From positions 32,001 to 96,000 of IMG/VR virus record IMGVR_UViG_3300049846_002130: 64,000 nt of DNA, one strand, 5' to 3'. Both the position numbers and the translations under genes were made by a program. Below the pieces are notes generated by a model. It saw nothing but the letters and a program-made list of their open reading frames with translations. It did no database searches and had not been told where the DNA came from. Origin of the DNA: a virus. Positions 10,347-28,900 of this stretch are shown in pieces. Numbering within the stretch: the stretch's first letter is position 1; every line of letters starts with the position of its first letter.

Positions 10347-10362
10347 GGAGTGAGATAAGAAA

Positions 10363-10992: not shown

Positions 10993-11011
10993 GTCTCCGA
11001 GTAGCAGTTCT

Positions 11012-11050
11012 AAGGGAGGTGGACTTTTGTTTCCACCTCCCTTTATACTT
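11012..11050 (+). terminator. Intrinsic terminator after the tube gene
   Basis: AAGGGAGGTGGA / TCCACCTCCCTT form a perfect 12-bp stem with an 8-nt loop and a T-rich tail. Confidence 0.85.
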
Positions 11051-11066
11051 TATGGGTGAGAATTAA

Positions 11067-11939: not shown

Positions 11940-11943
11940 ATTA

Positions 11944-12669: not shown

Positions 12670-13187
12670 TGCACAATCATGAAGAGGTACTTTTTTCATT
12701 AGATCAAGAGTTAGAAAAAGAACTAGAAACCTTAGACAAAGTAGTTGAAGAGCAAGCTCCCGCTCCTGCTCCCTCAATCGAGGACAGTATGAGAGATGAG
12801 ATCCTTAGACATTTACAGCAACATCCCAAGGCCCCATCTGAATCAGATATTAAAGGCTGGAAGGCCAAGTATGGAGAGTCTGGTATACAAGTAAGTGCTT
12901 TCGACTCAGAGAATGTGTTTGTTTACACCCACTTAACTTTAGCACAATGGGAAAAAATTGATGCGCTTCGTAAGAAGATGGCTACTACATCTGGAGCTGA
13001 ACAAGATGCTACTGAAAAGCGAGTTCGTGAAGCTGTGTTAAAGGGTTGTGTTCTTTGGCCTAAGTTAGATGAACAATTCTTTCAAACATGTCGAGCAGGG
13101 CTTCCTACAACTTTGTTTGATTTAGTTATGATTAATAGCTATTTCTTGACTCCACAACAGGCATTAACTTTAACTACAAAGTTATAA
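12669..13187 (+). CDS. Tail assembly chaperone
   Basis: 172 aa, acidic N-terminus, WKAKYG and GCVLWP segments. Lies between tube genes and the tape-measure slot. Confidence 0.6.
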   Translation: MHNHEEVLFSLDQELEKELETLDKVVEEQAPAPAPSIEDSMRDEILRHLQQHPKAPSESDIKGWKAKYGESGIQVSAFDSENVFVYTHLTLAQWEKIDALRKKMATTSGAEQDATEKRVREAVLKGCVLWPKLDEQFFQTCRAGLPTTLFDLVMINSYFLTPQQALTLTTKL

Positions 13188-13188
13188 G

Positions 13189-13869
13189 ATGGTTGAGATA
13201 TCTACTCTCTTAAAGCATGAGGATCTGTTCTTAACAGAGTTTCCTAATGGAACTAGTTTCTATTGGAGACTACTCTCTTTAAGAGAGTATTATCTTTTTA
13301 AAACTCTGCTTAATAGTGATCCCTATGCTTTTGATATTTATATGCAAATATTTAAGCAGGCGGTCCTATTAGAGGCTGAGTTAATCAACCCAAGGCTACC
13401 CCTGGGATATTTTGTTAGCGTTGCTAAAGCAATAATGTATCTATCTGGTGATGGTTCTCAGGAGACATTACAAGATGAAGTGGTGCTAGCTAAACAGCTC
13501 TACCCTAGTAATTCAATAGATGAGATTATGAAGGGAAGGATCTATACTGCTTTCCCTACCTATACTCCTAAAGATTTAATGAATATGAGTCGTTCACAAA
13601 TAATACGACTCTTTGCTCAGGCCGAGAATGTTCTAGCTACACGCATACAAGGTTTCCAGCCTGTAGATTTTTCTCAAGTAAAGTACAAGGATGATAATTC
13701 TTCTAGGACTTCTGAAACTCCTATCTCAATAGATTTTGATCAAGATGCGGCCCTACAAAGACAACAGCTTCATCCATGGGAGGCTTTTGAGGAGCCCAGT
13801 GAGAGTCCCGTTGGTATTAGTAGATCTGTGGCCCGAAAGCTGGATGCTAGAAGAAATCTTCAGTCATAA
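13189..13869 (+). CDS. Second tail assembly chaperone-like protein
   Basis: 226 aa directly before the tape-measure slot, so the function is positional inference. Confidence 0.5.
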   Translation: MVEISTLLKHEDLFLTEFPNGTSFYWRLLSLREYYLFKTLLNSDPYAFDIYMQIFKQAVLLEAELINPRLPLGYFVSVAKAIMYLSGDGSQETLQDEVVLAKQLYPSNSIDEIMKGRIYTAFPTYTPKDLMNMSRSQIIRLFAQAENVLATRIQGFQPVDFSQVKYKDDNSSRTSETPISIDFDQDAALQRQQLHPWEAFEEPSESPVGISRSVARKLDARRNLQS

Positions 13870-13885
13870 TAATATAGGAGGGTAA

Positions 13886-16800
13886 ATGTTCGAACCATAT
13901 GGCTCGATGGTTTGGAGTAATCAGCCTACTCAGCCCTCTGAAAATCGTCCTAATCGGTATCTAAATTTAGGCTTAGCATCTGTTGCTATGGGTGGTGCTT
14001 TTGCTTATGGCTTACACTCACGTCCTGACGATACTCGGCCGATAGATGCTCTTATTAGTGTAGCTAGGAATGTAGGCAATCTTACACCTTATCAGATTGG
14101 GAATACTTTTCGTGTTCCTGAGTTCTTAAGTCCCTTTGCTTCTCCTAAGTATCACAGACTTACTGCAAAGGGTGGGCAGTATACTCATACTTGGGATGCT
14201 GCTAGTCTATCTAATTCTAGTACCTATAGTTACCTTAAAGAATTAACTGGACTATCTGATAGCCAATTACATTCTTTTGGTATAGGTTCTAGATCATCTA
14301 AAGCTAATTTAGTATTCAAGAAAGATGCTACTGCTGTTCATGGACAGCTATATAGTGTCTTAAACGGTAAGGAGAGCCTGCTTCGTTCCAATGTTATGCT
14401 TATGCAGTATACTGGTGAGCGGAATGAAGTTCTAACATCACTAGGTAAGGCTCCTGAGTTTACTCCTGTTAATAAAGCGATCAAGTCTGTTTTTGCTGCT
14501 ATGGATATGTGGCGGTATAAGGACTTTAAAGAAGGCAATGTCTTGCTTTCTGGGAAGAACAGACCGTCGTTAATACCTGTGCCTGGTATTGAAGCCAGTT
14601 ATTCTGGCACAACATATCTTAGGTCTATTGGTGCTTTTCAAATGGAGAGGTTTAACCATCTACTGGGTAATATTGGTGGTGAACTATTTGGCTCTTCACT
14701 TGATAAAGTTTTTAAGCGGATACTGGGTACGGGAGTTGGAGTGGCTTCTGGGCCAGCTTCGAGTATGTTCTTTCGATTTGGTGGTAAGGCTGCTCTAGCT
14801 GGAGCAATAGGTATTGGAGCAGTAGCAGAGACAGATTGGATTAGGCGTAGGTTTGGAACTCCGGGACATATGATTGCAAGCACAGCAATTGCTGGTGGGC
14901 TTGGAGTGTTAGCTACTAGGGCTGGGTTTAAAGGTAAGACTGGGGCATTAATCGCTGGGGGAGCTTTTATTGGCCAAATGCTTTTACCTGGGTTTAATAA
15001 AGGTGTCGTGCCAGGACTTGCTACGTCGTATACTAATCTTCAGCTAGCAAGAGCCAGTAGCTTAAATCCCTTTAATTATTATCGTAGAACGGTAGAGGGT
15101 TTCTTACCCGGTATTAGTGGATTTGGTGTAGCAGCTGGTATTGGTATTGCTATGGCGACAGCTCCACATCTAAAGATTCCTGGTACAGGCAGACGAGTGC
15201 CTCAAATTCTTTTAGATCAACTTGGTCGCACTACTCTTGGGTTTAAACCAAAGACTCTCAGTGGTCTTTCTGTTGAAGTCCCCAAAACAGTACGTGATAT
15301 TTTTTGGGACAAAATGATGTCTCATGGTCTTCAAGAACTAAATGGTCCTAAGTTTGCAAAGATATATCAGCAGTATGCTGCTAATGGCCACTACTCTACC
15401 ATGAGTATGAGAAATAGGTTAATGAGAGAATTCTATACTCAACGACCAGTTGAAGAAACGAGTCGAGCTATGGAGCATCTCTTTGCTGCTGCAGAAACAG
15501 AGTATGACGAGTTAGCAAAAAGAAATCCGATTAATCACCATATGGTTGATGAGCTAACAGCTATTGCTACTAGATATTCTGGTAAAGGTGACTTTATATC
15601 TCGTGCCACAATGCAGGCAGAGGGTTTGGTTAGCCAGCTTAAGCATAGCTTTTTTGGAGCTGTACTTCACGAAGAAAGTACAGCTAAAGCCATGGCTTCC
15701 CTTGGGTTCAAATCTCCTCTTGGCTCTTTCGGATTATTGTTTGCAGCTGGAGCAACTGCCTTTGGTATAGCAAGTGGTGGTCTCTTGGGTTCAATGCGAA
15801 CAAAAGAAGAGCTTGAAGATATTTATTCTGGCAGACAACTTGTTGAAGTTAAGAAGGGTAGATTTTGGGAAGCGGGTGGTACCCCGTGGGAAGGTGGACT
15901 AACTTCTCAGTTAAGGCCTCATTGGTATCCAATAATGATGTCTCGGGCTCAACAAGCCGGAACATGGGGATCTGATGAAGACAATCTAGATCCTATTAGC
16001 AAGTGGGCTCTTTCTAATTTTACATATGAGCTAGAAAGAAGAAACTATTATGATCGACCCTATCCCATTAGTGGGGCAGCTTTTGCTAATGTTCCTATCA
16101 TTGGAGGACTATTAAGTTCTACGATTGGACGATTAATTAAGCCTCCAAAGATTATGCATGCTAATGAGTGGGCTCGTATGGGGGCTGGGGGTGCAGAGTA
16201 TGCTTCTTTGTATGAGGGTTGGAAGCGTGAACCATCATATGCAATGGGCGCATCTATGCCTGGTATACCTATAAGTCCATATAGTGCAGCACATGCTTTG
16301 AGTCAAGTTAACTATCAGGCTCAAGAGTTAGCAGGTTTGACTGGGTGGGTTGGCTCTCTAATTCAGGAGGGTTTAACCGGTAAACCATATTGGCATGGGG
16401 ACTCACCTGTCTTGGCAGATGCTTCGATACTCTCTAGTGCCAGAAGGACATTATGGGATGCACAGTTGGGCGGTATGGGTCCTTTAGGTGAAATAATTCG
16501 ACGGGTTCTTCCAAGCTATCCAAAAGATGTTGAGAGAACCAATCCCCTACTAAACACGATGCCCAGCTGGCTACCAGATCAATTTGCATATGGTGACCCA
16601 TATGCGCAGATCCCATATGGAGAGGCTGTTTTACCAGGACCTGGTTATGCAGCTTTACATCCAGAACTTAGAGGCGTAAGCCCAGAAGATTATCCCTTGT
16701 TACACAGATATAATATTCTGTCGCAGGTATCACCTTTAAGTAAAGAATTTAGAAGTACAAAAGATAAGGTCTATCGAGCACGAGCTGCTGGTTTATTAAC

Positions 16801-17905
16801 TTCTGAACAAGAAGCATATGTAGATAGATTGGATTATCTAACTAATAAGCGGTGGGCTGGATATGTTGATCAAGAGTTTGATCCAAATGCTATTCGTCTT
16901 CCTGGAAGTTCTTTTATTGCGGAGGGCAAGAGAGAAATCTTTAAGATGGCTAGGAAGGGTTTGGGGCCATTAGAATATCTAACACCATTCCGTCCACTAC
17001 AAAAACTTCTTGGCGATAGAGATCCAATTGAACAGTATGAATATGAAAGACTATATGGTAGCTCTGTTGCTTTCTGGGACAAACCATTTAGAGATTTCTT
17101 AAGACCAGCTATGTACTCCTTAGCTAACTATATGGGTTTTAGTGGTAAGCCCATATGGAGGCATGATGCTGATGCGACTAATGAACTATTTGATAAGGCA
17201 GAGTTTTACAAATGGATGTCTCTTGCAGAGCAGGCAGCAGCTCAAGGAGATACTCGAGATAAAATTCGATATGAGTATTTAGCAAGTAATACTCGTATGG
17301 GGGTAAACCCATACGGCAACCCATTAAGTATATACTGGTCTCTTCCTAATGAAGACCGAACTTATTTTAGTGCTTTTGCAACAGCAACTGGTAAGGACCG
17401 AGAACGTATTTTACAGATGGTTCCGGCAGACCAGGTACACCTTTATAAAGCTATGTGGTCTAGAGAAGATGCTGAAGATCCTAGTTTATGGACTGGGCTT
17501 AATACATCTCCCGACCAACAATACTTGTTTTCACAATACAATCAGTTAGATCGGAGTCAGTTGCCCGCCGATGATTGGATAGGCTATAACCAAGATGTCG
17601 ATATGCGGGACATCAAAGTTAGGTATGTTAATCAACAAGGTAAGGAGCTGCGTGACTTTGGTTTATGGGAGCAGGAACTTAAAAAAGCATATTCTCAACC
17701 ATACCTAGAAGGTTCTGAAACAGCAATTAGTTCTACGGAAATCAAAAGAGGCTGGTTAATGCATAGTATGAATAAGGTTTTTGATACTAGCGATATAAGC
17801 TTAATTAGTGGTAGTTCTCGCTATGGCACGATGGATTTAAATTATAATGATGATCGCCAAGTAGATATCGATAGGGCATTATTAGGGCAAATGAATGGCT
17901 ACTGA
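13886..17905 (+). CDS. Tape-measure-like/ejected virion protein with multiple hydrophobic helices
   Basis: 1339 aa with AGGAGG RBS, following the chaperones. Contains about seven Gly/Ala-rich hydrophobic stretches, e.g. LGSFGLLFAAGATAFGIASGGLLG. Confidence 0.6.
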   Translation: MFEPYGSMVWSNQPTQPSENRPNRYLNLGLASVAMGGAFAYGLHSRPDDTRPIDALISVARNVGNLTPYQIGNTFRVPEFLSPFASPKYHRLTAKGGQYTHTWDAASLSNSSTYSYLKELTGLSDSQLHSFGIGSRSSKANLVFKKDATAVHGQLYSVLNGKESLLRSNVMLMQYTGERNEVLTSLGKAPEFTPVNKAIKSVFAAMDMWRYKDFKEGNVLLSGKNRPSLIPVPGIEASYSGTTYLRSIGAFQMERFNHLLGNIGGELFGSSLDKVFKRILGTGVGVASGPASSMFFRFGGKAALAGAIGIGAVAETDWIRRRFGTPGHMIASTAIAGGLGVLATRAGFKGKTGALIAGGAFIGQMLLPGFNKGVVPGLATSYTNLQLARASSLNPFNYYRRTVEGFLPGISGFGVAAGIGIAMATAPHLKIPGTGRRVPQILLDQLGRTTLGFKPKTLSGLSVEVPKTVRDIFWDKMMSHGLQELNGPKFAKIYQQYAANGHYSTMSMRNRLMREFYTQRPVEETSRAMEHLFAAAETEYDELAKRNPINHHMVDELTAIATRYSGKGDFISRATMQAEGLVSQLKHSFFGAVLHEESTAKAMASLGFKSPLGSFGLLFAAGATAFGIASGGLLGSMRTKEELEDIYSGRQLVEVKKGRFWEAGGTPWEGGLTSQLRPHWYPIMMSRAQQAGTWGSDEDNLDPISKWALSNFTYELERRNYYDRPYPISGAAFANVPIIGGLLSSTIGRLIKPPKIMHANEWARMGAGGAEYASLYEGWKREPSYAMGASMPGIPISPYSAAHALSQVNYQAQELAGLTGWVGSLIQEGLTGKPYWHGDSPVLADASILSSARRTLWDAQLGGMGPLGEIIRRVLPSYPKDVERTNPLLNTMPSWLPDQFAYGDPYAQIPYGEAVLPGPGYAALHPELRGVSPEDYPLLHRYNILSQVSPLSKEFRSTKDKVYRARAAGLLTSEQEAYVDRLDYLTNKRWAGYVDQEFDPNAIRLPGSSFIAEGKREIFKMARKGLGPLEYLTPFRPLQKLLGDRDPIEQYEYERLYGSSVAFWDKPFRDFLRPAMYSLANYMGFSGKPIWRHDADATNELFDKAEFYKWMSLAEQAAAQGDTRDKIRYEYLASNTRMGVNPYGNPLSIYWSLPNEDRTYFSAFATATGKDRERILQMVPADQVHLYKAMWSREDAEDPSLWTGLNTSPDQQYLFSQYNQLDRSQLPADDWIGYNQDVDMRDIKVRYVNQQGKELRDFGLWEQELKKAYSQPYLEGSETAISSTEIKRGWLMHSMNKVFDTSDISLISGSSRYGTMDLNYNDDRQVDIDRALLGQMNGY

Positions 17906-20900
17906 ATCTTTAGAGAACCAGGGTAATCCATACGGAAATATTATTAAAACAGCTATTGGTTTAGCTCCCTTAGCTGTAGGAGGCTATATTGCTTTCAATA
18001 AAATTAAAGGTAATACAGCTCTAAACCCAGCTATACCTTTGGGGGTTGGAGGTTCCGGTAATCTTATTTCGGTTGCATCTGAACTTGGTAAAGAAATTAA
18101 AGTTAATGTTGGGAAATCTAGAGCTGCAGATCTATCTCGTATAGATAAAGTTTCTAAAGAAATAATGAAAGCTGATGGACTAAAAAAGTTGTTCTCCACA
18201 GTAGAAGAACAGCGAGTTCTTGTCCAAAGTCTACTAGATACACTTTCAGATCCCACTAGTGGTGTAAGCCAAGATGTGCTTCTCTCTTACAGAGAGAAGC
18301 TTTTAAACTTAGCTACCAATGCACCAGATTCTGACGATATGAGGGAGTCCATAAAGGCTGTTGTTAAGGCTATTGATACCCAAGGGACTGATAATGCTAA
18401 GGTTCGGTTAGCTAAGAATCTTAGAGAATATAAGAAATTAGGACCAAGCTTAGTCCCACCGGGACAGGCATTAACTCCTGAGCGAGGCTATATTGATCTT
18501 AACTTTTCTGGTCTTAAAGGTCATGTGTCTGATTCGAATACATACAAAGCTATTAAGAGAAGATATAAGGCATTAGAGAATGCCTTAGGTGGTGGAGGTA
18601 GGCAACGTATTCAACTAGTTGGTAAAGAGTTTGATGGAGCCTTTTCTGTATACGCTCGTGTTTCAACAGGTAGTAGGTTTACTGCAACAGTACCCCTTCA
18701 TGTTGGTACTAGTACTTCAGGGGTTAGAGGGTTGTTCTTAAATGAAGGTATGACCACTGGCTATGCAGCACCTAGACAGTTTTTAAGCGCACAAAAACTT
18801 CATAGTCTCGGACCTGGGTTAAAGGCCGGTGCCGGGACTGCTGAAGTTGCTATGGAAGATGTGTTCTTAAATGAATTCGTTTCTCGCTTAAAAAATGTTA
18901 ATGGCAGGACTATGCTTGAAAATACAAATGCATATGGGGCTTGGCAGCGACAGTTTTTAACTGTTATGCCAAGAGGGGCATATTCTGCTGATCGTTCAGG
19001 CCATTTACTAGGTACCATAGCTCAGGCTCAAAATTATGCAACTGTTGTTGGTTGGCAAGGTCTTGGTAAAGAAGCTCAATATGACATTATGACTAGATTA
19101 GGTGCTGCTGCTGGTTATGAGGCCAATGCACCTGGCTACCAGATGATTGTTCGGGGTATTGATGATGAAACTATTGGCCGAATGGGTATGGCTAGTGGGA
19201 GCGCATTGCATTCTTTAATGCCATCTCAGTCAGCTGATAGATTTTACTTTCCAGTAGAATCTCGTATTGAGCAGATGATTGGTCGGACAGCACAGTTTGT
19301 AGACGATAAGCCTATGAGAATGGGAAGAGGAGGAGTTTTTTCTGCTGGAGCTATGCATGCTGGTGGATTAAGTGCCACCAATATGGTCGGTCAAAATATC
19401 GAATGGGCGAATAATTTGACAGGAGCAACTAATAAGGCTGTCGTTATGGTCTTTAACAAAGACAATCCAATCTATAAAACTATGGAGGGTAGTGGTGCTG
19501 CACTCTATGCTGGTAGAGATAAAGTTGTAGACTTTATCTCTAAACCAGTCCTAGACCCCACGGCGACAAAACAAATGAGTAGCAAACTATTTCAGCATCT
19601 AACTACTACTTATAAGCCAGGTGAAGAGTTTACTATCTCTAGGGAAATGCTAAAGGAGCATGGAGCCTTTCTTGGATTTAGTGGTAATGGCCCCCAGCAT
19701 CTACGGCTAGATCCCCGAACCGATAGTATGCAGGCTATCTATAATGTCACTGAAACAAATGGTAAAAGAAATATTAACTTTATGATTAAGCATCAGCGAG
19801 ATATGGAGACATGGAAAGCATTTTCTCTTTCCCATAAAGGTATGTTACAGCAGATTGGAGGGCGGCGATTTATTCAGCACCTTGAAGATCTTGGTTTGTC
19901 AAAAGCCCGTCGTCAGTCTCTTGGTATACCAACAAGACATACTGTTATAGCTACACCAGATATGCTCAAGAAGGGAGCTGGATTATTAGACCTTCAAATG
20001 TCTGGTGCTTATGCTATGGTAACTGGTGATACTAATTATTTGTCTAGTATTCGTAAAGCTGGTATGGCCTTTGGTCAAGGTCTAGACGATTCTCGATTAG
20101 CTAGAACATTTGGTGGAGTAACAAGTCTACTCTCTAAGCAATTTCAAGCAGGAAAAGTTTCTGCTGAAGATATTGGTTTGGTGCTTTCTGGGGCTTGGTT
20201 TATGGGGGACAAGCATAAACGTTTTGGACTGACTCAAGATCTTCAGAAAGGTTTGATAGAGAAGCATTTTGGTAATGATTCTGGACAGGTGCTAGCTGCG
20301 ATACAGAAAGGTGTTGGTCTGTCACCAACTTCTATGGTACAGGGCATGGGGCCTGGAGACTATGGATTGGGAAGAGGTTCAATAGAGCCAAGATTTCTTC
20401 AAATGCTTCAGCAACAGTTACAGAATATGGGTATGACATCTGTACAGTCAGCTAAAGTATTAGCTGATATATATGGTCGAAAGCTTGGCGGAGCCAATGC
20501 TATAAAAGCTTCACAGGGAATGATGAAGTTCTTAGAGAGTGTTGGTGGACATCAAGGCCTAGCAACTGGTATCGAGCAACTTGTTAAAGGTGTTCCTGAA
20601 TATACACTTGCCGATCTAGGAAAAATAACCTCACAGGATTTTGCTAACTTCTTATCTGAACATAAGAATGGCTTTACTCTTAATCTAACTTCTGGTGTTG
20701 ATAGTGTCGCAAAGTCTGCAATTGCGGCAGCTGCTACCGATGTACTTGGACAGGGAAATGTTTATTTTCCTGGCTTGGAAATGACCGAAGCAATGAGAGA
20801 TGTCTTTATCAAAAATTCTGGTGAGATGGATACTGTTGTTCATGGCGAGTGGATGCGGAACTCAGAGAATTTCTTAAAGTCTATTCATGGTATTAGTACC

Positions 20901-22901
20901 CAGACTGTTGGAGCTTCTGATGCAGCTCGTGGAGCGATTGAGGGATTTGTTAAGCGAGGCAGAAAGATGGCGGCTGATACTATCCACAATATCCATCGTG
21001 GGAAGATTCGTGGCATGCAGGCAATGATAGCCGCTCCATTTGCTCTTGAATCTAATGTTGGTTTTGCTAAATCTTCACAGTTTAAGTTTGCTCGCAATAT
21101 TATGAGAAAGACTCGTGGCCAAGCTGTATTCTTTGACTCTACAGCTTTTATTAGTCAGCTTGCTGACTACATGGGCACCAAAGATGGTAATGTCGGTCAT
21201 GCTGCCCGCCAGGCTGAAATGTTTTTCTTGAGCCCAGAACTAGCTATGTCTAGTGGAAAGATGGGCAAGGTTAAGGGATTGGCACAAATTGGTCAGCGCC
21301 ACCCGACAGCATCTCTTGGTAATATATTTGTTACTCAAGTTTATCGAGATCCTAGAGAATTGGGAAAGAGTAACGATTATCTTAATACCTTTCTTGAGAC
21401 AGAGGTTGGTAAAGGATGGGCGGCCAAAAAGATTCGTCGATTCAAAGATCTAGAACAGCTAAGTGCTGGTAAGCGTCGGGCCTTTTTCACTGACTTTGTT
21501 AGAGAAATTGATTCGTTTGCTCCAGAGGGTGGGGGCATTGCATATCTTCCTGTAGCTAAAGCAAAAGTAAATCTTATTGGTGCCAATGAGCCATCTATGA
21601 ATGTTGATATAGGATTTTCTGCTGCAGCCATTGGTGACTTCGACGGAGATACATTTATGTTCACCCCTGTAAATAGTGATACAGGTAAGTTACTTCTTGG
21701 GCGAATGGGCAAGAAGTCTATGGACGAATGGGCTGCTAGTAATGCACTGTACAAGATTAAATCAGAACTCTTTACGAAGGAAGCCAAGGCAGGGTTAGAT
21801 AGACAAGCAGGGTCTGTAGTAGATATTGATGAGGCTATCAAGCAGGGGCTACTAAAAGAACAGGCAGCTAAGGCTGCTGTTGGAAGTCTAGATACTAGAC
21901 TTAATAAACTTAGGTTATCCTTGGTTGATATGCACCTTTCAGGACAAGCTAGCAGAGATCAGGTTTCTGAAGCATTGAGCTTACTAAAGGTCTTACAAGA
22001 GCACACAACTATTAAGGGTAAAAAGCTTCCTGTTTACAAACCATTTGCAGAAAGTTTAACAGCTGCCGTAGATAGAGTATTCGATTCTGGTGACTGGGGT
22101 TCGTTTGAACGAGTGCTCAATGAAGATATTTTTAAAGGAAGCCAACTACTTGAAGGCGGAGTTACTATAGATAGTGTAAGTTCTGATGGGTTTGGCTTTT
22201 TCGGTCGCGGAGTTCAAAAGCAACAAGTAAGTCTTGCGCAGACAGTGGCTACGATGAAGCAAGCTGTTAGTCGATCGCAGGTAACTGGTATAGCTAATGC
22301 CCCATCAGCAAACTGGATGGTAAAAGGTTTAGCTTCACAAGACCCAGTAGAAGCTGAGCGAATGATGACGCTAATGACTAGTGGGCAGCTTCAAGCTACA
22401 GCTACTTTGATGTCAGCTACGGAGGATGCTGGCCAGATAACAAAGACAGCTCTTGCTCGGGGCCAGTCTATATTACAAAATATAGGCCATTATATTTCTG
22501 GTTTAGACAATAAGACTACGGGTATTATTGCTGGAGGTATATTGGCGGCAACTGCCACGATGGCAATGATTGGTAATAGAGGGTATAGTAGTCAAGCTCT
22601 TACAATGCCTGGAGAGATTGCTGGTAACGATATAGATAAACAAATTTCTAGCGGACAGCTTTTGGGGCCGCCGCGAAAGAATTATCCTACAGCAACCCCA
22701 CAACAAATTGGAACCACCTATGTACAAGGTAGAAGTACATATTCGGTTCGTGGTATTTTACATGGAATTGGTGACGTAGCTAACGCAACTAACTATCTAA
22801 GTACTATTAGTGGTGGGAATATGAGAGGCTCTGTAAGTATCAATGATAATCGTAGACCCATCAGTGGCAGTTATGTAGATCGTTTCTTTGGAGTATACTA
22901 G
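17895..22901 (+). CDS. Tape-measure-slot protein containing a putative single-chain two-barrel (beta/beta'-like) RNA polymerase
   Basis: 1668 aa. Ordered motifs: E531, K641-x6-K648G, R1035GK, R1135HP, G-D1248FDGD1252, Q1368..K1374. Hydrophobic segments at both termini. Confidence 0.75.
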   Translation: MATESLENQGNPYGNIIKTAIGLAPLAVGGYIAFNKIKGNTALNPAIPLGVGGSGNLISVASELGKEIKVNVGKSRAADLSRIDKVSKEIMKADGLKKLFSTVEEQRVLVQSLLDTLSDPTSGVSQDVLLSYREKLLNLATNAPDSDDMRESIKAVVKAIDTQGTDNAKVRLAKNLREYKKLGPSLVPPGQALTPERGYIDLNFSGLKGHVSDSNTYKAIKRRYKALENALGGGGRQRIQLVGKEFDGAFSVYARVSTGSRFTATVPLHVGTSTSGVRGLFLNEGMTTGYAAPRQFLSAQKLHSLGPGLKAGAGTAEVAMEDVFLNEFVSRLKNVNGRTMLENTNAYGAWQRQFLTVMPRGAYSADRSGHLLGTIAQAQNYATVVGWQGLGKEAQYDIMTRLGAAAGYEANAPGYQMIVRGIDDETIGRMGMASGSALHSLMPSQSADRFYFPVESRIEQMIGRTAQFVDDKPMRMGRGGVFSAGAMHAGGLSATNMVGQNIEWANNLTGATNKAVVMVFNKDNPIYKTMEGSGAALYAGRDKVVDFISKPVLDPTATKQMSSKLFQHLTTTYKPGEEFTISREMLKEHGAFLGFSGNGPQHLRLDPRTDSMQAIYNVTETNGKRNINFMIKHQRDMETWKAFSLSHKGMLQQIGGRRFIQHLEDLGLSKARRQSLGIPTRHTVIATPDMLKKGAGLLDLQMSGAYAMVTGDTNYLSSIRKAGMAFGQGLDDSRLARTFGGVTSLLSKQFQAGKVSAEDIGLVLSGAWFMGDKHKRFGLTQDLQKGLIEKHFGNDSGQVLAAIQKGVGLSPTSMVQGMGPGDYGLGRGSIEPRFLQMLQQQLQNMGMTSVQSAKVLADIYGRKLGGANAIKASQGMMKFLESVGGHQGLATGIEQLVKGVPEYTLADLGKITSQDFANFLSEHKNGFTLNLTSGVDSVAKSAIAAAATDVLGQGNVYFPGLEMTEAMRDVFIKNSGEMDTVVHGEWMRNSENFLKSIHGISTQTVGASDAARGAIEGFVKRGRKMAADTIHNIHRGKIRGMQAMIAAPFALESNVGFAKSSQFKFARNIMRKTRGQAVFFDSTAFISQLADYMGTKDGNVGHAARQAEMFFLSPELAMSSGKMGKVKGLAQIGQRHPTASLGNIFVTQVYRDPRELGKSNDYLNTFLETEVGKGWAAKKIRRFKDLEQLSAGKRRAFFTDFVREIDSFAPEGGGIAYLPVAKAKVNLIGANEPSMNVDIGFSAAAIGDFDGDTFMFTPVNSDTGKLLLGRMGKKSMDEWAASNALYKIKSELFTKEAKAGLDRQAGSVVDIDEAIKQGLLKEQAAKAAVGSLDTRLNKLRLSLVDMHLSGQASRDQVSEALSLLKVLQEHTTIKGKKLPVYKPFAESLTAAVDRVFDSGDWGSFERVLNEDIFKGSQLLEGGVTIDSVSSDGFGFFGRGVQKQQVSLAQTVATMKQAVSRSQVTGIANAPSANWMVKGLASQDPVEAERMMTLMTSGQLQATATLMSATEDAGQITKTALARGQSILQNIGHYISGLDNKTTGIIAGGILAATATMAMIGNRGYSSQALTMPGEIAGNDIDKQISSGQLLGPPRKNYPTATPQQIGTTYVQGRSTYSVRGILHGIGDVANATNYLSTISGGNMRGSVSINDNRRPISGSYVDRFFGVY

Positions 22902-25900
22902 TGACAATTAGTGTAAGGTCCCCCACTGATATTGGTGGTAAGAATGTCTTTGTTCTTAATGATATAGATCTTAATATTCCTCCCACACAGATAGAGGTTC
23001 GAAATGAAAACCTTATCTATCAGTACAAGACTTTAAGAACAAAGGTAAGCACTAAGGTACCTACTGGACATGGGCAGGCTGTTATTACAGCCCGCATACC
23101 TTTTACTCCCAGTACACTATTAGACCTACATAGATTAATAGTTCAGTTTAGATATAGCCCGTTCTTTTATCTAGATAACAGATATGTAAGAGAGACATTG
23201 GTACCAGATTGGCCATGGTCTCAAAACATGGCTGTAACAATTACTGGACTTAATGTTTCTAGTATGCCCGGCAGTTCAGATACACTTGTAGCTGATCTTG
23301 ATATGTTGTGGTTTAATTACTTCCCGTATCTTCACAACTTCTACTTTAGGGAAGATTGGCAGACGAATTGGATTCGAGATGAAAAGAATCCGGCAAAGTC
23401 TCATACCTTTTCAGTAGGCTGGACCTTAGATAAAGATAGCTATAAGCGGAACCATGCTCCTTCTATCTTGGCTTCTCGTGATTTCGAAGAAACATCTAAT
23501 GCTTTGGTAAGTTCTGATATCTATACTGCTAAGAAGCCAACCTGGAGCATCTCTGAAGGTAGTTATAAGTCTAGTACTAATAGGACTATCTTTGAGATGG
23601 AAGCAGCTCATCCTGGTATAGAGTTTGATCTGCTGCCAGTTCCAGGCAATATGCAGCCAGCCCGTATAGTTACTCAACCAAGAAATAGTTATATCTTTGT
23701 TAGATTTATGAATCTCTTACAAAGAGATTCATTATTTAAGAATTTTGGTATCGACGTCGATCAGGATTTGCGAGATTACGAGCGTAACCATAACCTAACT
23801 GGACTCTGGGATAGATTCTTTTCTATAGGTAAAGATCTTGAAGGTAATCCATTTGTAGCTGGTTTACATAGTATTTCTGTACCACTAGAGTTGAGAAATA
23901 AATGGATTTCTCAAATGCGTCAGTTCAATCATAGAATTAAATTTCTTTACAATGGTTATAAAGAGATACGATTACCGCAAAAGTTTGTAGAGGCTACTCA
24001 AAATAGACGTAACAATGCTGTTATTAGCCTTGCTCAAAGGGCTAGCTATTGGTCTAAGTATGGTACGGGTAACTACATCCCCACCGTTCAAGATGATCCT
24101 GTTACCACCGTTCTTGTAGGAAGGCCAGCAAGGATTACAGACGTGTTTGGTTCGACTGGCAGCGTAAATGGCAAGCCTAGGCCTAGACCACATGGTGGCT
24201 TGGATATTGGTGTCCCAGTAACCACCCCTCTATATGCTCCTATAAATGGAACTATTTCCAGTGTTAAAACCAGTGCTGATGGATCTGGTGGAAGGCAAAT
24301 AGTACTAAGGGGAGACGATGGGAGTATGTGGTGGTTCTTACACTTGGAATTAATTCAGGCTGGTAAGAATCAGTCTGTCCAGGCTGGCCAGCGAATTGGG
24401 TTTACTGGTGCGACAGGGGAAGGTATTAGTGGCCCGCACCTTCATGTAGAATACATTGCTCCTGGGTCTAGTACAAAGTCAGATCCGTATTTAGTCCTTC
24501 AACGTATTTATGAGAGTCAGCAATATGGCTTACAGACTCAGTCTGAAGATATTTATGAGTTCTTACCAAATACAGAACAACAATCAACAGCACAAGAAGA
24601 TTTTATTAATGCAGCTAAGTATGAAGCTCAGGCTGCATTAAAGGCGACTGATGAGGAGGCGGAGGCCCTAGTTGAACTCTTTCAGCTTCTAAGTGAAGAG
24701 GGCTGGTACTTTTACGATAAAGATTCAAGTGTTACAAATGTTTGGCAGAAGACAATTGTTTTAGATATAAATCATTCTGGTTTAGACCGAGTAACTGGAA
24801 TAGCTCAAGAGCCCGAAGTGTTTAGACAGGCCGGCATTATCTGTACAGCTATTAATGGTAGTATCTCACATATTGTATCAAAGATACCTATTCTTTCTCA
24901 TGAATGGCCTACCCATCAGCATCTTGGCTCAATTGAGCCTAAGTATGAGCTAGAGTTTATGGTACTAGATGACCAAACCGATCTTGAAGGCATCGGCTCT
25001 ATGGCACAACTTGTTCAGGGAATGCGTAGTGTGGCCCAGTCTAATAGCCGTAAGTTTCGGCCCATTATTGATGGTCACTGCATTGCTACAGACACTTTTA
25101 TCACAAGGTTACTTGGTACATATCAAAATAATGATCTAAAGGTCTTGGAAGCTCTTAATGAAATTGCAGATATAGACCTAAAGAAAAAGACAGTTATTAG
25201 TAGCTCCTACTCTGGAACAGTAGATGGAAATCCTGGTCTTAGTGTAATTAATTACACTTTAGAAGAAACAAATCCTTATGAGCCAGAGAAGCTTTTTAGT
25301 ACTGCCCCATCTCTACAAGATAAAGAAACCAGTAGAAAGCAGGTGCTGCAAAAGATCTACGACCTAGATGTCGTTGCACAGTATAAGCCCATTGTTGTTG
25401 GATTGTTTGTTGGCTCAAAGATTAATCCGAACTTGATAGATCCAAGATCTGATTCCTTTGGAAAGTTTCTTCTAAAAAAGAATCCCGCAGAGAACTTTAA
25501 TCAACCATACTTATATGTTGATACTGTATCTGATGAGCGACTTGCTGAGAATATTATTGTCTTCCCTTATGGTAGTCCTTCAGAGTTAGATTGGTTGAAT
25601 ACACTTGGTATAGATTATGATGATACAAGTTGGGGTCAAGGATGGGCCTCTATACCAAGCACCTATTTAGACACGGCTAGTACTCAATCTAATTATCAGC
25701 TTCCTGGATATGTTGCTGGTATGTCTGGTTATGCTTACGTAGCACCAGATGATATTACATTACCACCATTAGAGGAATCAGTTAGCTATAACCTCCTCGA
25801 TATGGCCAAGATAAATAATAATTCTGATATCGACTTTGCAGCTTTTCAAAGATTTGCTGATTACTATGTTGCTATAAAGCAAACCTTGGAAACAGGCGAA

Positions 25901-28900
25901 CGTATTATGGCAGAGGCAGAAGCTGGAGGCCTTACCAAAGAGTTTATTAGCAGCTTCCTTTATGATCTTCCTATTAAGAACAATATGTGGAAGATTTGGG
26001 AAATGTTTTTAGAAGAGTTTGTTCAAGAGCGAGCACTCTATCCAGACTCTACTGTTAAGGCCGGTGCTTTAGAGCAATTACATGAAAACTCTGCTTGGCC
26101 CTATGTAGGTAAAGCAACTTGGGCAGACCCTGTCCCCGAACAATATCGACCAGCACTAAGAACAAATATCCAAACTACACTCATTCAACATGGGTGGAAT
26201 ATTCTTGGTTATTTAGATGAACCACTAATTAAGGCTGGTTATAATGTTGGAGCGGCACTTAGTAGCTCTATAGATCTTGCCACCTATCAAAGAGAAAAAA
26301 GAAAAACTGCTATTAGCAGATTGGTAAATTACTATCTTTGGACTTTGCCCATAAGTTTTTCTTTGCCTGACTGGGTCAAAGCAACATATGGCACTTATAT
26401 TGGTGAAGTGATTAGCAGTGATAACTTAGATTCTCCTTCTGCTACTGCGCCAGCACTACGTTCTACGTATCAATCATTTTTTGACAATGCAGATAGCTGT
26501 GGAAATATAACCCAGAACTATTTCTCTGCTACACCTGAGCCTGTCTGGGTTGTAACTAATGAATCTATTGGACAGAGAGGTGGGGTACTAGGTCACAACC
26601 TAGATAGTCTTTTGGCACCAGCTACAACACAAGCCGATATATTTTTACAGGGTCCCTATTATCTATTTGGTTCTAGTAGGAAAATAGACACTTATAAATA
26701 TGCTGACAGTCTAGTTAGTAAACCTTTGCAACTTACTGGAACAGAAGAGTTTTTAAGACCTTATCAGCAGATAGGCAATACTCCTGGTAGTCCATTTGTG
26801 TACCACACCGACCAAGCTACCGAGCAACAAAAGGCTTACTATCTTAAAAATATTTTTGCTACTTTTGCAGATGGTATTCTTGCTGACTATGCTGTATTAA
26901 AAATAATAGGACTTGAAAGCTTAATGTTTCTGGATCCTGCCGCCATCGAAGGTAAGGAATGCTATCCAGATATAGATTTGCCAGCTCACCCCTACTATGG
27001 AAGCACTAAACTAGTTTCTCCTGACTTTTTTATGTGGAACATATACGAAGATGCAGATGCTTTAAATATAGAGCAGCAAGAAAAGATTCAGGTTCAGGTT
27101 GATGCTGTAATTCTTAACTCTTATCAGAGTATGAAGCGTTTGGAACAGGGAGATACTTTTGATACAAATTCAGATACAGTCTTATCTGAAAATAGTATTA
27201 ATAGTGACTTTAAGATAGATACTAAGCTTTCTGCTGAAGGTACTGATGGCAATGCACAGAACGGTGTAAGTACCACACCGTTCTATCCGGTCCAAGCAGC
27301 TGCGAAAGATACAGAAGATTGGGTGAGTGCTTTAACCCAAGCCAAGGGTGGATCGGGAAATATTAGACAAATTGGTAATGGTATTAGACCAATAGGTTTT
27401 AATAGTAGCAAGAAAGATTACTATAGTACGAAGCCTTCTGATTTTCTTCATGGGCTTCGAGTATCAAATGCTGAAAGTGTATTTGGTGGTGGACAGACTG
27501 GATTCCAATATCCAGCTAGACTTAGTAATGAACAGTATGCTCAGCTTAAGGTAGAGTTTGAAGCAACAACTCAGATGTTTGGTTCTGTTGAAGGTTATAT
27601 GAATCAACAGCTTAACGAAACAAACTTCCCAACAGTAGCTAGTGAACTAACAGGTACAAGCCTAGAGCGGCCTTTTGAAATAGCTCATACATTCGATATC
27701 AAGTCTTTACAAAAGTTAAGCAAAGATAGTGCCAAGGATCTAATATCTCATAAGATGACTCTTCGTGGAGCATTTCCAACATATAAGCTTTTCTTTATTG
27801 AAGAAGATGAATTCGAAACTAGGTTTATCAACTTTGATGATTTTTATAGCTATAATGCTGTAAAGAGTTTTTCTGTTGTTTTGAGCCGGAAGATACCAGC
27901 TGATACTGCAATTATTTCTTTACAGAACGTTCAAGGTTCTCTTGATGGAACACGAAGAAGTACTGTTACTGATCTAGATTACTTTTCTGGTGACACTGTT
28001 AAGAAAAAACTCCAAGCCAATGGTGATACTGATGCTAGTTTATTGTCTGGAGAGCCAGTAACAACTGGTACTAGTTCAGAGCAGCCTTTCTCTGCTGTAG
28101 TGCTTAGACCGGGGTTAAATGTTCAGTTACGAGCTGGCTACTCTAATGATCCTGATAATCTTCATGTTCTTTTGAGTGGAAGAATTGTTGATGTTACATA
28201 TAACCAAACTGGTGACCTTGCAGAAATAATGGTTCAAAGTTTTGGAACAGAGCTTGCTCAAGTCCTAAAGGGAACTTCTAGAGACTCTAATATAGTCACC
28301 TACACCACAACACATCAGTTACTGGCGTCTATGATGTTGGAGCCAGAGGTTACCCACTTCGGTAGATGGGAGTTCGGACAAACTTACTTTATTGGTGAAG
28401 CTAAAGATCATAAATTAGATTTCGTAGATTACTCTAGAGCTGGCTATCTTGGAAGATTTAAGAATACAGAAGGTATAACTCGTTGGATAATTGACCATCC
28501 AAAGACTGTGTTGGCTATAGGCGTTGGTGTAACAGCTTTGAGCTTTTTGCCCTTGGGCGCGGTAGGTAAAGTTCTCGGGAAGAGTAAGATAGGAAGGTCT
28601 TTGTTTGGAGTGGGTGGTAATACAGCTCTTTGGGAGTCTGGCTATCGTGCAATTTGGGGTGGTGCGCCCCAGGGAGTAGTAACTGGTGCCGAGGCTATCT
28701 CGCAGGGTGTGGCTAGAACAGGTCTTGCTAGAGCTATAGATCAAAGCCTTGATAAACTCGGTGCTGCTGCTGTTAAAGCAGCAGCCGATGCTCCAGAGAT
28801 GGCCTTGCTTGTAGCTCAAAGAACTGCAGCAACTAAAGGAGAAATTGTTGGCAAGCTTTTAGCAGGTCAAGCTGATGATGCAATTGCTATTGCGGCCAGC

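What the first reader, a model, noticed from the sequence alone, without database searches (positions are those of the whole stretch)
17895..22901. Candidate single-chain virion RNA polymerase in the tape-measure slot of a contractile-tailed phage
Seen: the protein lies between the tail chaperones and the baseplate hub and has, in order, TNKAVVMVF..ME531GSG, WK641AFSLSHK648GM, VIATPDMLKKG, HR1035GKIRG, GQR1135HPT, EGGGIAYLP...AIGD1248FDGD1252TFMF (nt 21636-21650) and LQEHTTIKGKK. Established: cellular beta has N-x-x-VA..QEDS, K-x7-KG and DIVLNP in its double-psi barrel, and beta' has GKRV, NRxP and NADFDGD. Single-chain versions exist (SPbeta YonO, crAss-like virion RNAP, and the RNAP fused to the tape measure of Thermus siphophage P23-45). 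Inference: this is a packaged, ejected two-barrel RNAP for host-independent early transcription. Unlike P23-45, it is in a myophage, sits centrally in its own gene, and is flanked by hydrophobic segments at about 17940-17996 and 22521-22574. I do not recognise this arrangement as described.
Basis: partly seen in the sequence, partly recalled or inferred. Interest (0 to 1): 0.93.

Follow-up and report, generated by a model that had tools for sequence, protein, structure and literature searches.

The report
Tail-module RNA polymerase in a myophage
A 1,668-residue gene in the "tape-measure" position of a 183-kb contractile-tailed phage folds as a single-chain version of the cellular RNA polymerase core with every catalytic residue conserved, so this phage probably carries its own transcription enzyme in its tail; that was known before only for one unrelated long-tailed Thermus phage group.

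Summary
In detail: ORF 17895-22901 (+) carries every listed motif and both hydrophobic segments at the stated coordinates.

**Fold.** A 53-sequence AlphaFold2 model of residues 470-1440 (pLDDT 90, pTM 0.88) matches two-barrel RNA polymerases almost exclusively. The N half matches beta/Rpb2 and the C half beta'/Rpb1. Whole-length matches are QDE-1, RDR2, P74-26 gp62 and P23-45 gp96.

**Conservation.** Across 53 relatives (19-68% identity) only K641, K648, P1137, D1248, D1250, D1252, E1369 and K1376 are invariant. The family has at least 165 clusters, no annotation, and no detectable sequence match to any known family.

**Context.** The tail module is collinear with Bacillus phage 0305phi8-36. 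The target sits where that phage has gp146, its "hypothetical tape measure protein", found in virions by mass spectrometry. The hub giant with the M23 peptidase is the next gene.

**Second polymerase.** An RdRP/YonO-like polymerase lies in the early region and co-occurs in distant relatives.

**Not shown.** Packaging, ejection, template and promoters are inferred. Convergence of the catalytic residues in 3D could not be measured.

**Verdict.** It is a new variant of the P23-45-type tail-associated virion RNAP, here in myophages. The scan has flagged relatives on other DNA before.

The parts
17895..22901 (+). Gene for the 1668-aa protein (P0001): a single-chain two-barrel RNA polymerase core with N- and C-terminal extensions. 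It sits in the slot that corresponds to 0305phi8-36 gp146.
   Evidence: ORF list and translation. At least 165 homolog clusters. Synteny.
17940..17996 (+). N-terminal hydrophobic helix (aa 16-34), preceded by a conserved N-P-(F/Y)-G motif. The same type of N-terminus occurs in the upstream giant protein.
   Evidence: Hydropathy scan. Alignments.
19347..20369 (+). Beta/Rpb2-like module containing the first double-psi barrel (aa about 485-825; model residues 16-356).
   Evidence: VIA-align: vaccinia Rpo132 6rfl_B Z 8.2 and 6ric_B Z 8.2 over model 16-353/356; Pol I, Pol III and plastid beta-type chains. Most Foldseek top rows are beta-type chains.
19815..19838 (+). K641-x6-K648-G, the pair of basic residues of the beta-type barrel. 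Both lysines are invariant in 53/53 sequences.
   Evidence: In the model both lie in beta strands 171-174 and 179-184.
20547..22151 (+). Beta'/Rpb1-like module (aa about 885-1419; model residues 416-950).
   Evidence: VIA-align Z about 8 to Rpb1, A', and E. coli and M. tuberculosis beta' chains over model 416-950. Atlas rows carry PF00623/PF04997.
21012..21671 (+). Second double-psi barrel (aa about 1040-1259; model residues 571-790).
   Evidence: It aligns to isolated DPBB domains: designed DPBB 7dww_A Z 5.8 (85 of 86 residues) and 7dbo_B, and the N-terminal domains of CDC48 and PEX1.
21297..21305 (+). R1135-H-P1137, the counterpart of the beta' N-R-x-P motif. R is present in 52/53 and P in 53/53 sequences.
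21636..21650 (+). D1248-F-D1250-G-D1252, the candidate Mg-binding loop. All three Asp are invariant in 53/53; G1251 is present in 49/53.
   Evidence: In the model it is a loop between helix 772-775 and strand 784-789.
21825..22025 (+). Long helix (aa 1311-1348, with K1321-E1322) followed by the Q-E1369-H-T-T-I-K-G-K1376-K segment. These are candidate counterparts of the bridge helix and trigger-loop region.
   Evidence: Secondary structure of the model. E1369 and K1376 are invariant. The functional assignment is inferred only.
22515..22577 (+). C-terminal hydrophobic segment (aa 1541-1561).
   Evidence: Hydropathy scan. It is conserved in homologs.
22830..22898 (+). Extreme C-terminal motif S-x-x-I-N-D-x-R-R-P-I-x-x-x-Y-x-D-R-x-x-G-x-Y. 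It is at least 90% conserved in the family and resembles the C-termini of the upstream giant and of 0305phi8-36 gp145 and gp146.
   Evidence: hhalign to the gp146 C-terminus gives E 0.068. The literature notes that only the last 60 residues of gp146 are conserved.
13886..17905 (+). Upstream giant (1339 aa, no Cys), a homolog of 0305phi8-36 gp145 (virion protein by mass spectrometry) and ME3_35. It overlaps the target by 11 nt.
   Evidence: BLASTP E 7e-18 and 1e-59. Record annotation. Junction sequence.
22901..31261 (+). Downstream giant (2786 aa), a homolog of the 0305phi8-36 gp147 baseplate hub and of ME3_37. It has an M23 peptidase at aa 430-520 (nt 24188-24460) and several hydrophobic segments. 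Its GTG start overlaps the target's TAG stop.
   Evidence: Pfam PF01551 E 8.5e-16. BLASTP E 7e-17..
12669..13869 (+). Two small genes in the tail-chaperonin position. The first is similar to ME3_33 and to 0305phi8-36 gp143.
   Evidence: BLASTP E 1.9e-12 and 8e-5.
8031..12669 (+). Tail sheath, tail tube, a tube paralog and a gp142-like gene, which show that the phage has a contractile tail.
   Evidence: PHROG tail sheath E 3e-31. BLASTP to 0305phi8-36 gp139-gp142.

Best explanation
The gene encodes a catalytically competent single-chain two-barrel RNA polymerase. A beta-like barrel module is followed by a beta'-like barrel module at about aa 485-1420. This core is embedded between terminal modules: an N-terminal hydrophobic helix plus a helical region, and a C-terminal hydrophobic segment plus a conserved terminal motif. 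Those modules are the kind that mark the two giant tail-lumen or ejection proteins of 0305phi8-36-like myophages.

Proposed mechanism:
1. The protein is made late together with the tail genes.
2. It is built into the virion at the tape-measure position, probably anchored to the gp27-like hub giant by its conserved C-terminus.
3. It is expelled at sheath contraction, together with the upstream giant.
4. The hub's M23 peptidase opens the cell wall and the hydrophobic segments engage the membrane.
5. The polymerase core then transcribes the first phage genes without host RNA polymerase.
6. Among the early genes is a second, RdRP/YonO-like polymerase that takes over later transcription, as in the P23-45 cascade.

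Shown: the fold, the conservation of catalytic residues, the synteny, and the co-occurrence of the two polymerases. Inferred: packaging, location in the tail, ejection, a DNA template, promoter choice and the cascade order.
For: FOLD.
- The AF2 model of aa 470-1440 has pLDDT 90.1 and pTM 0.88.
- VIA-align against 48,161 chains puts two-barrel polymerases in all of the top 16 rows: QDE-1 Z 9.8 (323 aligned residues, model 36-933), RDR2 Z 9.5, P74-26 gp62 Z 8.7, vaccinia Rpo132 Z 8.2 (model 16-356), Rpb1 Z 7.9 (model 416-950) and P23-45 gp96 Z 6.5/6.3.
- In the second look, 512 of 998 chains reach Z of at least 5; all 50 rows shown are RNAP large subunits.
- About 45 of the top 50 Foldseek PDB rows are RNAP chains, though all at E of at least 0.0099.
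- All 10 ESM Atlas rows are polymerases. The best has TM 0.50/0.53 over 601 residues and is a phage cluster that carries PF00562 and PF00623 in one chain.

CATALYTIC RESIDUES. The only invariant columns among 53 sequences are K641, K648, P1137, D1248, D1250, D1252, E1369 and K1376. R1135 is present in 52/53.

VIRION AND TAIL.
- The gene lies in the + strand structural block and is translationally coupled on both sides.
- The module is collinear with 0305phi8-36 (gp139-gp145, gp147, gp150 and gp151 all matched), which places the target in the gp146 slot.
- gp145 and gp146 are virion proteins by mass spectrometry in the GenBank record. gp146 was assigned as the tape measure.
- The target and the gp145 homolog share N- and C-terminal motifs, and all ten such proteins in five phages have no Cys.
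- The same three-giant order is conserved in relatives at 27-44% identity.

CASCADE.
- The genome at 10840-13884 (-) encodes a protein with invariant TDGSG, QFR, KG, RFP and QGDDDGD motifs.
- That protein resembles RdRP (PF05183) clusters by features (0.95) and by structure (TM 0.45-0.62).
- Homologs of it occur in a 99%-complete relative (E 1e-100) and in one fragment.

PRECEDENT. P23-45 gp96 is a tape-measure-fused virion RNAP, paired with the non-virion RNAP gp64.
Against: - There is no direct evidence that this protein is in virions. There is no proteome and no isolate of this phage.
- 0305phi8-36 gp146, the positional counterpart with mass-spectrometry evidence, has no DxDxD motif. It resembles the target only weakly, at the extreme C-terminus (hhalign E 0.068).
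- A folded core of about 105 kDa should not fit a tail-tube lumen, so an unfolded or extended stored state has to be assumed.
- Foldseek E-values against the PDB are all above 0.001, and Z scores of 8-10 are in the range the tool calls middling. The case rests on how uniform the hits are and how they split into two halves, not on any single score.
- 3D convergence of the Asp triad and the lysines was not measured.
- No sequence-level link to any characterised RNAP was found.
- Which polymerase reads which promoter is unknown.
Confidence: 0.6

Rival explanations
1. It is an active two-barrel RNAP carried in the virion, but stored in the capsid as an ejection or cargo protein (like N4 vRNAP, the crAss-like gp66 cargo or the phiKZ inner body) rather than in the tail lumen. 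A different protein measures the tail.
For: A folded core of about 950 residues cannot sit in a tube lumen. Known virion RNAPs other than P23-45 gp96 are capsid cargo (papers listed). Two other giants flank it that could act as the tape measure or hub.
Against: The gene lies between the tail chaperonin genes and the hub, not in the head module. Its conserved extreme C-terminus behaves like that of gp146, the assigned tape measure. P23-45 shows that a tail-tape-linked RNAP is possible.
Confidence: 0.15
2. It is an active RNAP that is not packaged: a non-virion, middle or late polymerase whose gene merely sits in the tail operon.
For: No proteome exists for this phage. The phage family already has a second polymerase, so two intracellular polymerases are conceivable.
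Against: The slot is conserved between virion-protein genes across relatives at 25-68% identity, with translational coupling. The hydrophobic helices, the terminal motifs shared with the gp145 homolog and the Cys-free composition have no role in a cytoplasmic enzyme. A polymerase first made with late tail genes would be too late to serve the current infection.
Confidence: 0.1
3. It is a virion protein whose polymerase acts mainly as a DNA-translocation motor or primer-maker during genome entry, not as the enzyme that produces early mRNAs. Alternatively, it uses RNA templates, like QDE-1 and RDR2.
For: The best whole-length structural matches are RdRPs (QDE-1 Z 9.8, RDR2 Z 9.5). Transcription-driven genome entry is established for T7 and was discussed for 0305phi8-36 gp99.
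Against: The Atlas best match and the split of hits into two halves point to DNA-dependent beta/beta' enzymes. QDE-1 itself also uses DNA templates (abstract listed). P23-45 gp96 makes pre-early mRNAs.
Confidence: 0.1
4. It is a structural tape-measure or ejection protein that keeps only an inactive relic of a polymerase fold.
For: 0305phi8-36 gp146 fills the same slot without a DxDxD motif.
Against: The only invariant residues across 53 sequences, down to 19% identity, are exactly the predicted catalytic ones. That pattern indicates selection for catalysis.
Confidence: 0.03

Closest known systems
Thermus phage P23-45 gp96 (also P74-26, G20c, TSP4): virion two-barrel RNAP fused to the tape measure protein (Chaban et al. 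2024, PMC10770324)
   Same: Both are single-chain two-barrel RNAPs with a DFDGD loop at the tape-measure locus. In both, an M23 metallopeptidase and hydrophobic segments belong to the same tail-lumen gene set. Both phages also encode a second, non-virion single-chain RNAP. The gp96 structures are structural matches (8h2m_A Z 6.5, 8h2n_A Z 6.3, across model residues 35-953).
   Different: There is no detectable sequence or profile similarity (hhalign probability 0.3%). The phage here has a contractile tail and belongs to the 0305phi8-36-like lineage. The polymerase sits centrally in its own 1668-aa gene rather than at the N-terminus of a 5002-aa fusion. The M23 peptidase is in the next gene, which is a gp27-type hub. 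Virion presence and activity are not shown here.
P74-26 gp62 / P23-45 gp64 non-virion RNAP, Neurospora QDE-1, maize RDR2 (single-chain two-barrel polymerases with solved structures)
   Same: These are the best whole-length structural matches (Z 8.7, 9.8 and 9.5), with 282-324 residues aligned across both barrels.
   Different: Sequence identity is 11-12%, and the target has no Pfam RdRP hit. None of these is a virion or tail-module protein.
Bacillus phage 0305phi8-36 gp146, 'hypothetical tape measure protein' (Hardies et al. 2007, PMC2147016)
   Same: It occupies the same slot in a collinear tail module, between the gp145 homolog and the gp147 hub homolog. It is Cys-free and has a similar extreme C-terminal motif. 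It is a virion protein by mass spectrometry.
   Different: gp146 is 2537 aa, has no DxDxD motif, and shows no detectable similarity to the polymerase core.
Acinetobacter phage vB_AbaM_ME3 gp36 (ME3_36, 1603 aa, annotated hypothetical protein)
   Same: It occupies the same slot between the same two giants. It is Cys-free. It carries R-E-P at 1174 and D-H-D-Q-D at 1217. Its BFVD model matches the target model (Foldseek E 5e-6, probability 1.0).
   Different: No sequence-level similarity to the target family was found. The loop is DHDQD rather than DFDGD. It was not annotated as a polymerase in the record or in the jumbo-phage survey I read.
crAss-like phage phi14:2 gp66 virion RNAP and SPbeta YonO
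   Same: Both are single-chain two-barrel phage RNAPs. gp66 is carried in the virion (papers listed).
   Different: gp66 has a DFDID motif and belongs to a podovirus cargo block. YonO is a non-virion enzyme of the RdRP-like clade. Neither appeared among the listed structural matches, which does not exclude relatedness. In this genome the YonO/RdRP-like enzyme is a different gene.

Membership tests
Two-barrel (double-psi beta-barrel) RNA polymerase superfamily | Two DPBB domains, a beta/Rpb2-type one and a beta'/Rpb1-type one, forming one core | tested here: met
   Model residues 16-356 align to Rpb2-type chains (Z 8.2). Residues 416-950 align to Rpb1/beta' chains (Z about 8). Residues 571-790 align to isolated DPBB domains. 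Whole-length matches are single-chain two-barrel enzymes. The Atlas best match carries PF00562 and PF00623.
Two-barrel (double-psi beta-barrel) RNA polymerase superfamily | DxDxD metal-binding loop in the beta'-type barrel | tested here: met
   D1248, D1250 and D1252 are invariant in 53/53 sequences. In the model they sit in a loop inside the second barrel.
Two-barrel (double-psi beta-barrel) RNA polymerase superfamily | Two conserved basic residues in the beta-type barrel | tested here: met
   K641 and K648 are invariant in 53/53 sequences and lie on adjacent strands of the first barrel module.
Two-barrel (double-psi beta-barrel) RNA polymerase superfamily | Asp triad and basic residues converge on one active site at the barrel interface | not testable with these tools
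   Model coordinates are not exposed to scripts, so no distances could be measured.
Two-barrel (double-psi beta-barrel) RNA polymerase superfamily | Template-dependent RNA synthesis | not testable with these tools
   This needs a biochemical assay.
P23-45 gp96-type tape-measure-fused virion RNAP | Sequence homology to the gp96 polymerase region | tested here: not met
   hhalign of the 53-sequence profile against gp96 aa 327-1201 gives probability 0.3%. A PDB sequence search with the protein and with the profile finds nothing.
P23-45 gp96-type tape-measure-fused virion RNAP | Polymerase, metallopeptidase and membrane segments in one tape-measure polypeptide | tested here: not met
   The polymerase is a separate 1668-aa gene. 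The M23 peptidase is in the next gene, a hub homolog. The arrangement is comparable in function but not fused.
P23-45 gp96-type tape-measure-fused virion RNAP | Presence in virions and transcription of pre-early genes | not testable with these tools
   Only positional counterparts (0305phi8-36 gp145 and gp146) have mass-spectrometry evidence.
RdRP / YonO-like clade (Pfam PF05183) | Match to the PF05183 profile | tested here: not met
   The target has no Pfam hit. Structural similarity to QDE-1 and RDR2 (Z 9.8 and 9.5) shows only the shared superfamily fold. The genome's other polymerase, P0156, is the RdRP-like one.
Myophage tape measure protein | Gene between the tail chaperone genes and the baseplate hub gene | tested here: met
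   Synteny with 0305phi8-36 and ME3 places it in the gp146 slot, one gene after the chaperonin-like genes.
Myophage tape measure protein | Homology to an assigned tape measure, and length proportional to tail length | tested here: inconclusive
   The only match is weak and limited to the C-terminus of gp146 (hhalign E 0.068). The tail length of this uncultured phage is unknown.

The most novel reading that the evidence does not exclude
A large, ancient lineage of contractile-tailed phages (0305phi8-36-like, including the cultured Acinetobacter phage ME3) delivers a pair of Cys-free giant proteins through the tail tube. One of them is a complete single-chain RNA polymerase that is stored unfolded or extended in the tape-measure position. 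It would refold at the cell membrane and start a two-polymerase cascade, with an RdRP/YonO-like enzyme second, that is independent of host RNA polymerase. It would read the phage-specific hairpin-flanked CTTTTAYGG cassettes of the early region. If so, tape measure and virion polymerase have been combined repeatedly and independently in sipho- and myophages.
Probability: 0.4. Interest if true: 0.85.

Novelty: new variant of a known kind. Interest (0 to 1): 0.78.

Why it matters
**Generality.** Tail-tape-linked virion RNA polymerases are documented only for the P23-45 group of Thermus siphophages. This finding extends the principle to contractile-tailed phages. The family has no sequence link to any known polymerase and is widespread: at least 165 clusters at 50% identity, with lengths from about 1,650 to 3,265 aa.

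**The storage problem.** It sharpens an open mechanistic question: how a polymerase core of about 105 kDa is stored in, and passes through, a tail.

**Annotation.** Many "hypothetical tape measure" or "minor tail" proteins may hide polymerases.

**Testability.** A cultured relative with the same three-giant layout exists (Acinetobacter phage ME3), so virion proteomics and rifampicin-resistant early transcription can be tested directly.

**Evolution of two-barrel polymerases.** The family adds a very divergent branch that still keeps the beta-then-beta' order in one chain.

Tried and rejected
SEQUENCE SEARCHES WITH NO RESULT
- Pfam and PHROGs scans of the target gave no real hit.
- PDB sequence searches with the protein and with an 8-sequence profile gave only chance hits.
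- tblastn against 50,697 phage records found no match for the target or for the second polymerase.
- The ESM Atlas feature search for the target gave no usable hit, and the Atlas holds no model of it.
- hhalign of the family profile against P23-45 gp96, 0305phi8-36 gp146, ME3_36 and the second-polymerase family found nothing beyond the weak C-terminal match to gp146.
- HMM searches of the ME3 and Ma-LMM01 records found only a marginal hit at the DFDGD loop of the LMM01 3562-aa ORF.

TECHNICAL FAILURES AND DEAD ENDS
- The first AF2 run with 8 sequences was unusable (pLDDT 60). It was superseded by the 53-sequence run.
- A 91-sequence alignment failed in the tool.
- The genome search cannot reach the Logan contigs behind L001 and L003.

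IDEAS TESTED AND REJECTED
- That the 3221-aa relative (P0125) is a fusion of the upstream giant with the polymerase. It shows no similarity to the upstream giant. It shares the polymerase protein's termini and DFDGD region, so it is an expanded form of the same protein.
- That the early-region CTTTTAYGG cassette is conserved in a distant complete relative (G002). It is not; that phage has its own repeated CCTTGAGRGA-type word.

OTHER
- The antisense ORFs inside the gene (for example 21377-21841, minus strand) were taken as spurious shadows of the long, conserved + frame.

Full report
**1. Observation**

Window 17895-22901 (+) is one 1668-codon ORF. The DFDGD codons lie at nt 21636-21650. A hydropathy scan finds exactly two hydrophobic segments: aa 16-34 (nt 17940-17996) and aa 1541-1561 (nt 22515-22577). 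The protein has no Pfam or PHROG family, no sequence match in the PDB, and no tblastn match in 50,697 phage records.

**2. Family and conservation**

- A word-indexed search found eight full-length homologs at 25-68% identity.
- An exhaustive profile search of 1.84 billion cluster representatives found 165 proteins at E of 0.001 or better, 122 of them at 1e-30 or better. Most are 1,650-1,830 aa and some reach 3,265 aa.
- In a 53-sequence alignment (down to 19% identity) the only invariant columns of the 971-residue core are K641, K648, P1137, D1248, D1250, D1252, E1369 and K1376.
- Also conserved are R1135 (52/53), G1036, G1040, K693, E831, R833 and K1374 (51-52/53), and K1321 and E1322 (49-50/53).

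From established knowledge of multisubunit RNAPs, this is the expected pattern: two basic residues in the beta barrel, and N-R-x-P plus N-A-D-F-D-G-D in the beta' barrel. The pattern is a lead, and the fold below tests it.

**3. Fold**

- An AlphaFold2 run with 8 sequences failed (pLDDT 60). With 53 sequences the model of aa 470-1440 reached pLDDT 90.1 and pTM 0.88.
- Foldseek against the PDB gave no row at E of 0.001 or better. About 45 of the top 50 rows were still RNAP large subunits: phage AR9 and phiKZ non-virion RNAPs, Thermus beta, and poxvirus, archaeal and eukaryotic Rpb2.
- VIA-align against 48,161 representative chains placed two-barrel polymerases in the top 16 rows:
  - QDE-1, Z 9.8
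  - maize RDR2, Z 9.5
  - P74-26 gp62, Z 8.7
  - vaccinia Rpo132, Z 8.2 (model 16-356)
  - Rpb1, Z 7.9 (model 416-950)
  - archaeal A', Z 7.7
  - M. tuberculosis beta', Z 6.8
  - P23-45 gp96, Z 6.5 and 6.3
- Isolated DPBB domains align to model 571-790.
- The second-look run gave 512 of 998 chains at Z of 5 or more. The split was the same: beta-type chains on model 16-353 and beta'-type chains on model 416-950.
- All ten ESM Atlas rows are polymerases. The best (TM 0.50/0.53, 601 residues) is a phage cluster with PF00562 and PF00623 in one chain.

No single score is overwhelming, and the tools warn that Z of 8-10 is middling. The argument rests on three things: the hits are uniform, they divide cleanly into a beta half and a beta' half, and the invariant residues fall in both barrels.

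**4. Genomic context**

- The window lies in a complete 183,528-bp IMG/VR virus record with 127-bp direct terminal repeats.
- Upstream on the same strand are the major capsid, sheath and tube genes. Downstream are a Baseplate_J gene and other tail genes.
- BLASTP shows gene-for-gene collinearity with Bacillus phage 0305phi8-36 and Acinetobacter phage ME3: sheath (gp139), tube (gp140), tube paralog (gp141), gp142, chaperonin gp143, then three giants, then gp150 and the P2 gpJ-like gp151.
- Giant 1 (13886-17905) is homologous to gp145 (E 7e-18) and ME3_35 (E 1e-59).
- Giant 3 (22901-31261) carries an M23 peptidase. It is homologous to the gp147 hub (E 7e-17) and ME3_37.
- The target is therefore the counterpart by position of gp146. 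The GenBank record calls gp146 a "hypothetical tape measure protein", identified in virions by mass spectrometry. Hardies et al. assigned it as the tape measure from tail length and noted that only its last 60 residues are conserved.
- The same three-giant order holds around homologs at 27-44% identity on contigs of 103 and 151 kb.
- The target overlaps giant 1 by 11 nt, and its TAG stop overlaps the GTG start of giant 3.

**5. Terminal modules**

Giants 1 and 2 share two features:
- an N-terminal P-x-G motif followed by a hydrophobic helix;
- an extreme C-terminal I-N-D-x-R-R ... D-R ... G-x-Y type motif.

The C-terminal motif is at least 90% conserved in the target family. The C-terminus of gp146 aligns weakly to it (hhalign E 0.068). 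All ten giant-1 and giant-2 proteins from five phages contain no cysteine, whereas the hub giants do. The 3221-aa relative keeps both termini and the DFDGD region, so it is an expanded form of the same protein and not a fusion with giant 1. These features make little sense for a cytoplasmic enzyme. They fit proteins that are assembled into a virion and expelled from it.

**6. A second polymerase and candidate promoters (outside the window)**

- Its family has invariant TDGSG, QFR, KG, RFP and QGDDDGD motifs.
- The ESM Atlas places it next to RdRP (PF05183) clusters by features (0.95) and by structure (TM 0.45-0.62).
- 0305phi8-36 also has an RdRP-family polymerase, orf99.
- Homologs occur in a 99%-complete relative whose tail-slot polymerase is only 26% identical (E 1e-100) and in one fragment. 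They are missing only from two fragments that are 41-52% complete.
- The gene lies in a minus-strand early region that holds ten copies (at most one mismatch) of CTTTTAYGG between genome 13785 and 18294. The background is 1-3 copies per 10 kb per strand. Each of the seven exact copies follows a GC hairpin and a T run, and in most an RBS and ATG follow within about 20-40 nt. The one-mismatch copy at 13785 sits just upstream of the polymerase gene.
- Which enzyme reads these cassettes is unknown. The word is not conserved in the distant relative.

**7. Mechanism and rivals**

The best explanation is a tail-associated virion RNAP that starts a two-polymerase cascade, analogous to P23-45.
- Shown computationally: enzyme identity (about 0.9).
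- Inferred: virion location, ejection, DNA template and promoter choice. With these included, overall confidence is about 0.6.
- Rivals: capsid rather than tail storage (0.15); a non-packaged polymerase (0.1); a translocation, priming or RNA-templated role (0.1); an inactive relic (0.03).

**8. Comparison and novelty**

The closest known system is P23-45 gp96. It shares the fold class, the DFDGD loop, the tape-measure locus, the association with an M23 peptidase and hydrophobic segments, and a partner non-virion RNAP. It differs in four ways: no sequence or profile similarity, a contractile tail, a separate gene with a central core, and the peptidase on a gp27-type hub.

BFVD matches suggest that ME3_36 (Foldseek E 5e-6; R-E-P and D-H-D-Q-D motifs) is a cultured-phage analogue in the same slot. 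Giant Microcystis-phage proteins may be further analogues. [quoted passage not shown]

Full-text searches found no description of this family. This scan has flagged relatives on other DNA before: giants of 1463, 3221 and 3562 aa.

I class it as a new variant of a known kind.

Noticed in passing
outside the window: genome G000:C1:10840-13884, minus strand (L010:10840-13884:-; P0156/P0157): This is a second single-chain two-barrel polymerase candidate of the RdRP/YonO-like kind. It has invariant TDGSG, QFR, KG, RFP and QGDDDGD motifs, and Atlas neighbours carry PF05183. It co-occurs with the tail-slot polymerase in a 99%-complete distant relative.
   Followed up: partly
outside the window: genome G000:C1:13785-18294, minus strand (in L010): Ten copies (at most one mismatch) of CTTTTAYGG lie here. 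Each of the seven exact copies follows a GC-rich hairpin and a T run, and in most an RBS and ATG follow within about 20-40 nt. They look like terminator-promoter cassettes between small early genes. The copy at 13785 lies directly upstream of the RdRP-like polymerase gene. The word is not conserved in relative G002.
   Followed up: partly
window 13886-17905 and 17895-22901; L001, L003, L043, L045: The two giants upstream of the hub share an N-terminal P-x-G motif plus hydrophobic helix and an extreme C-terminal I-N-D-x-R-R...G-x-Y type motif. All ten such proteins in five phages (about 16,000 residues) contain no cysteine, whereas the hub giants have 6-10.
   Followed up: partly
L043:24173-28984 (+), Acinetobacter phage vB_AbaM_ME3 gene ME3_36: This cultured jumbo myophage has a 1603-aa 'hypothetical protein' in the same slot. 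It carries R-E-P (1174) and D-H-D-Q-D (1217), and its BFVD model matches the target model (E 5e-6). It is a likely unannotated tail-slot RNAP and an experimentally tractable analogue.
   Followed up: partly
L042:17701-28389 (-) and L042:3812-8833 (-), Microcystis phage Ma-LMM01: ORF80 (3562 aa) carries R-S-P and then G-D-F-D-G-D-T-F at residue 2537. ORF64 (1673 aa) carries R-T-P and then G-D-A-D-G-D at residue 1348. So there are two polymerase-like giants in this myophage, and neither lies between the tube and baseplate genes.
   Followed up: partly
P0125 (3221 aa) and other hits of 2000-3265 aa: These are expanded members of the same family. They keep the N-terminal helix, the DFDGD region and the C-terminal motif but carry about 1,500 extra residues.
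   Followed up: partly
window 22901-31261: The hub giant (2786 aa) combines an M23 peptidase (aa 430-520), regions homologous to the 0305phi8-36 gp147 hub, and about six hydrophobic segments. It was hit by tape-measure PHROGs only through the M23 domain.
   Followed up: partly
G002:C1 (L056-L063): The 147-kb relative has its own over-represented inverted word, CCTTGAGRGA / TCYCTCAAGG, with 8-9 copies per strand.
   Followed up: no
genome G000:C1:102091-104538, 126476-128245, 154936-157161 (L012, L013, L015): The phage encodes a DnaE-type Pol III alpha subunit, a class I ribonucleotide reductase, a ClpB-like double AAA ATPase and a subtilase. A 1477-aa protein at 146474-150907 has no family hit.
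   Followed up: no
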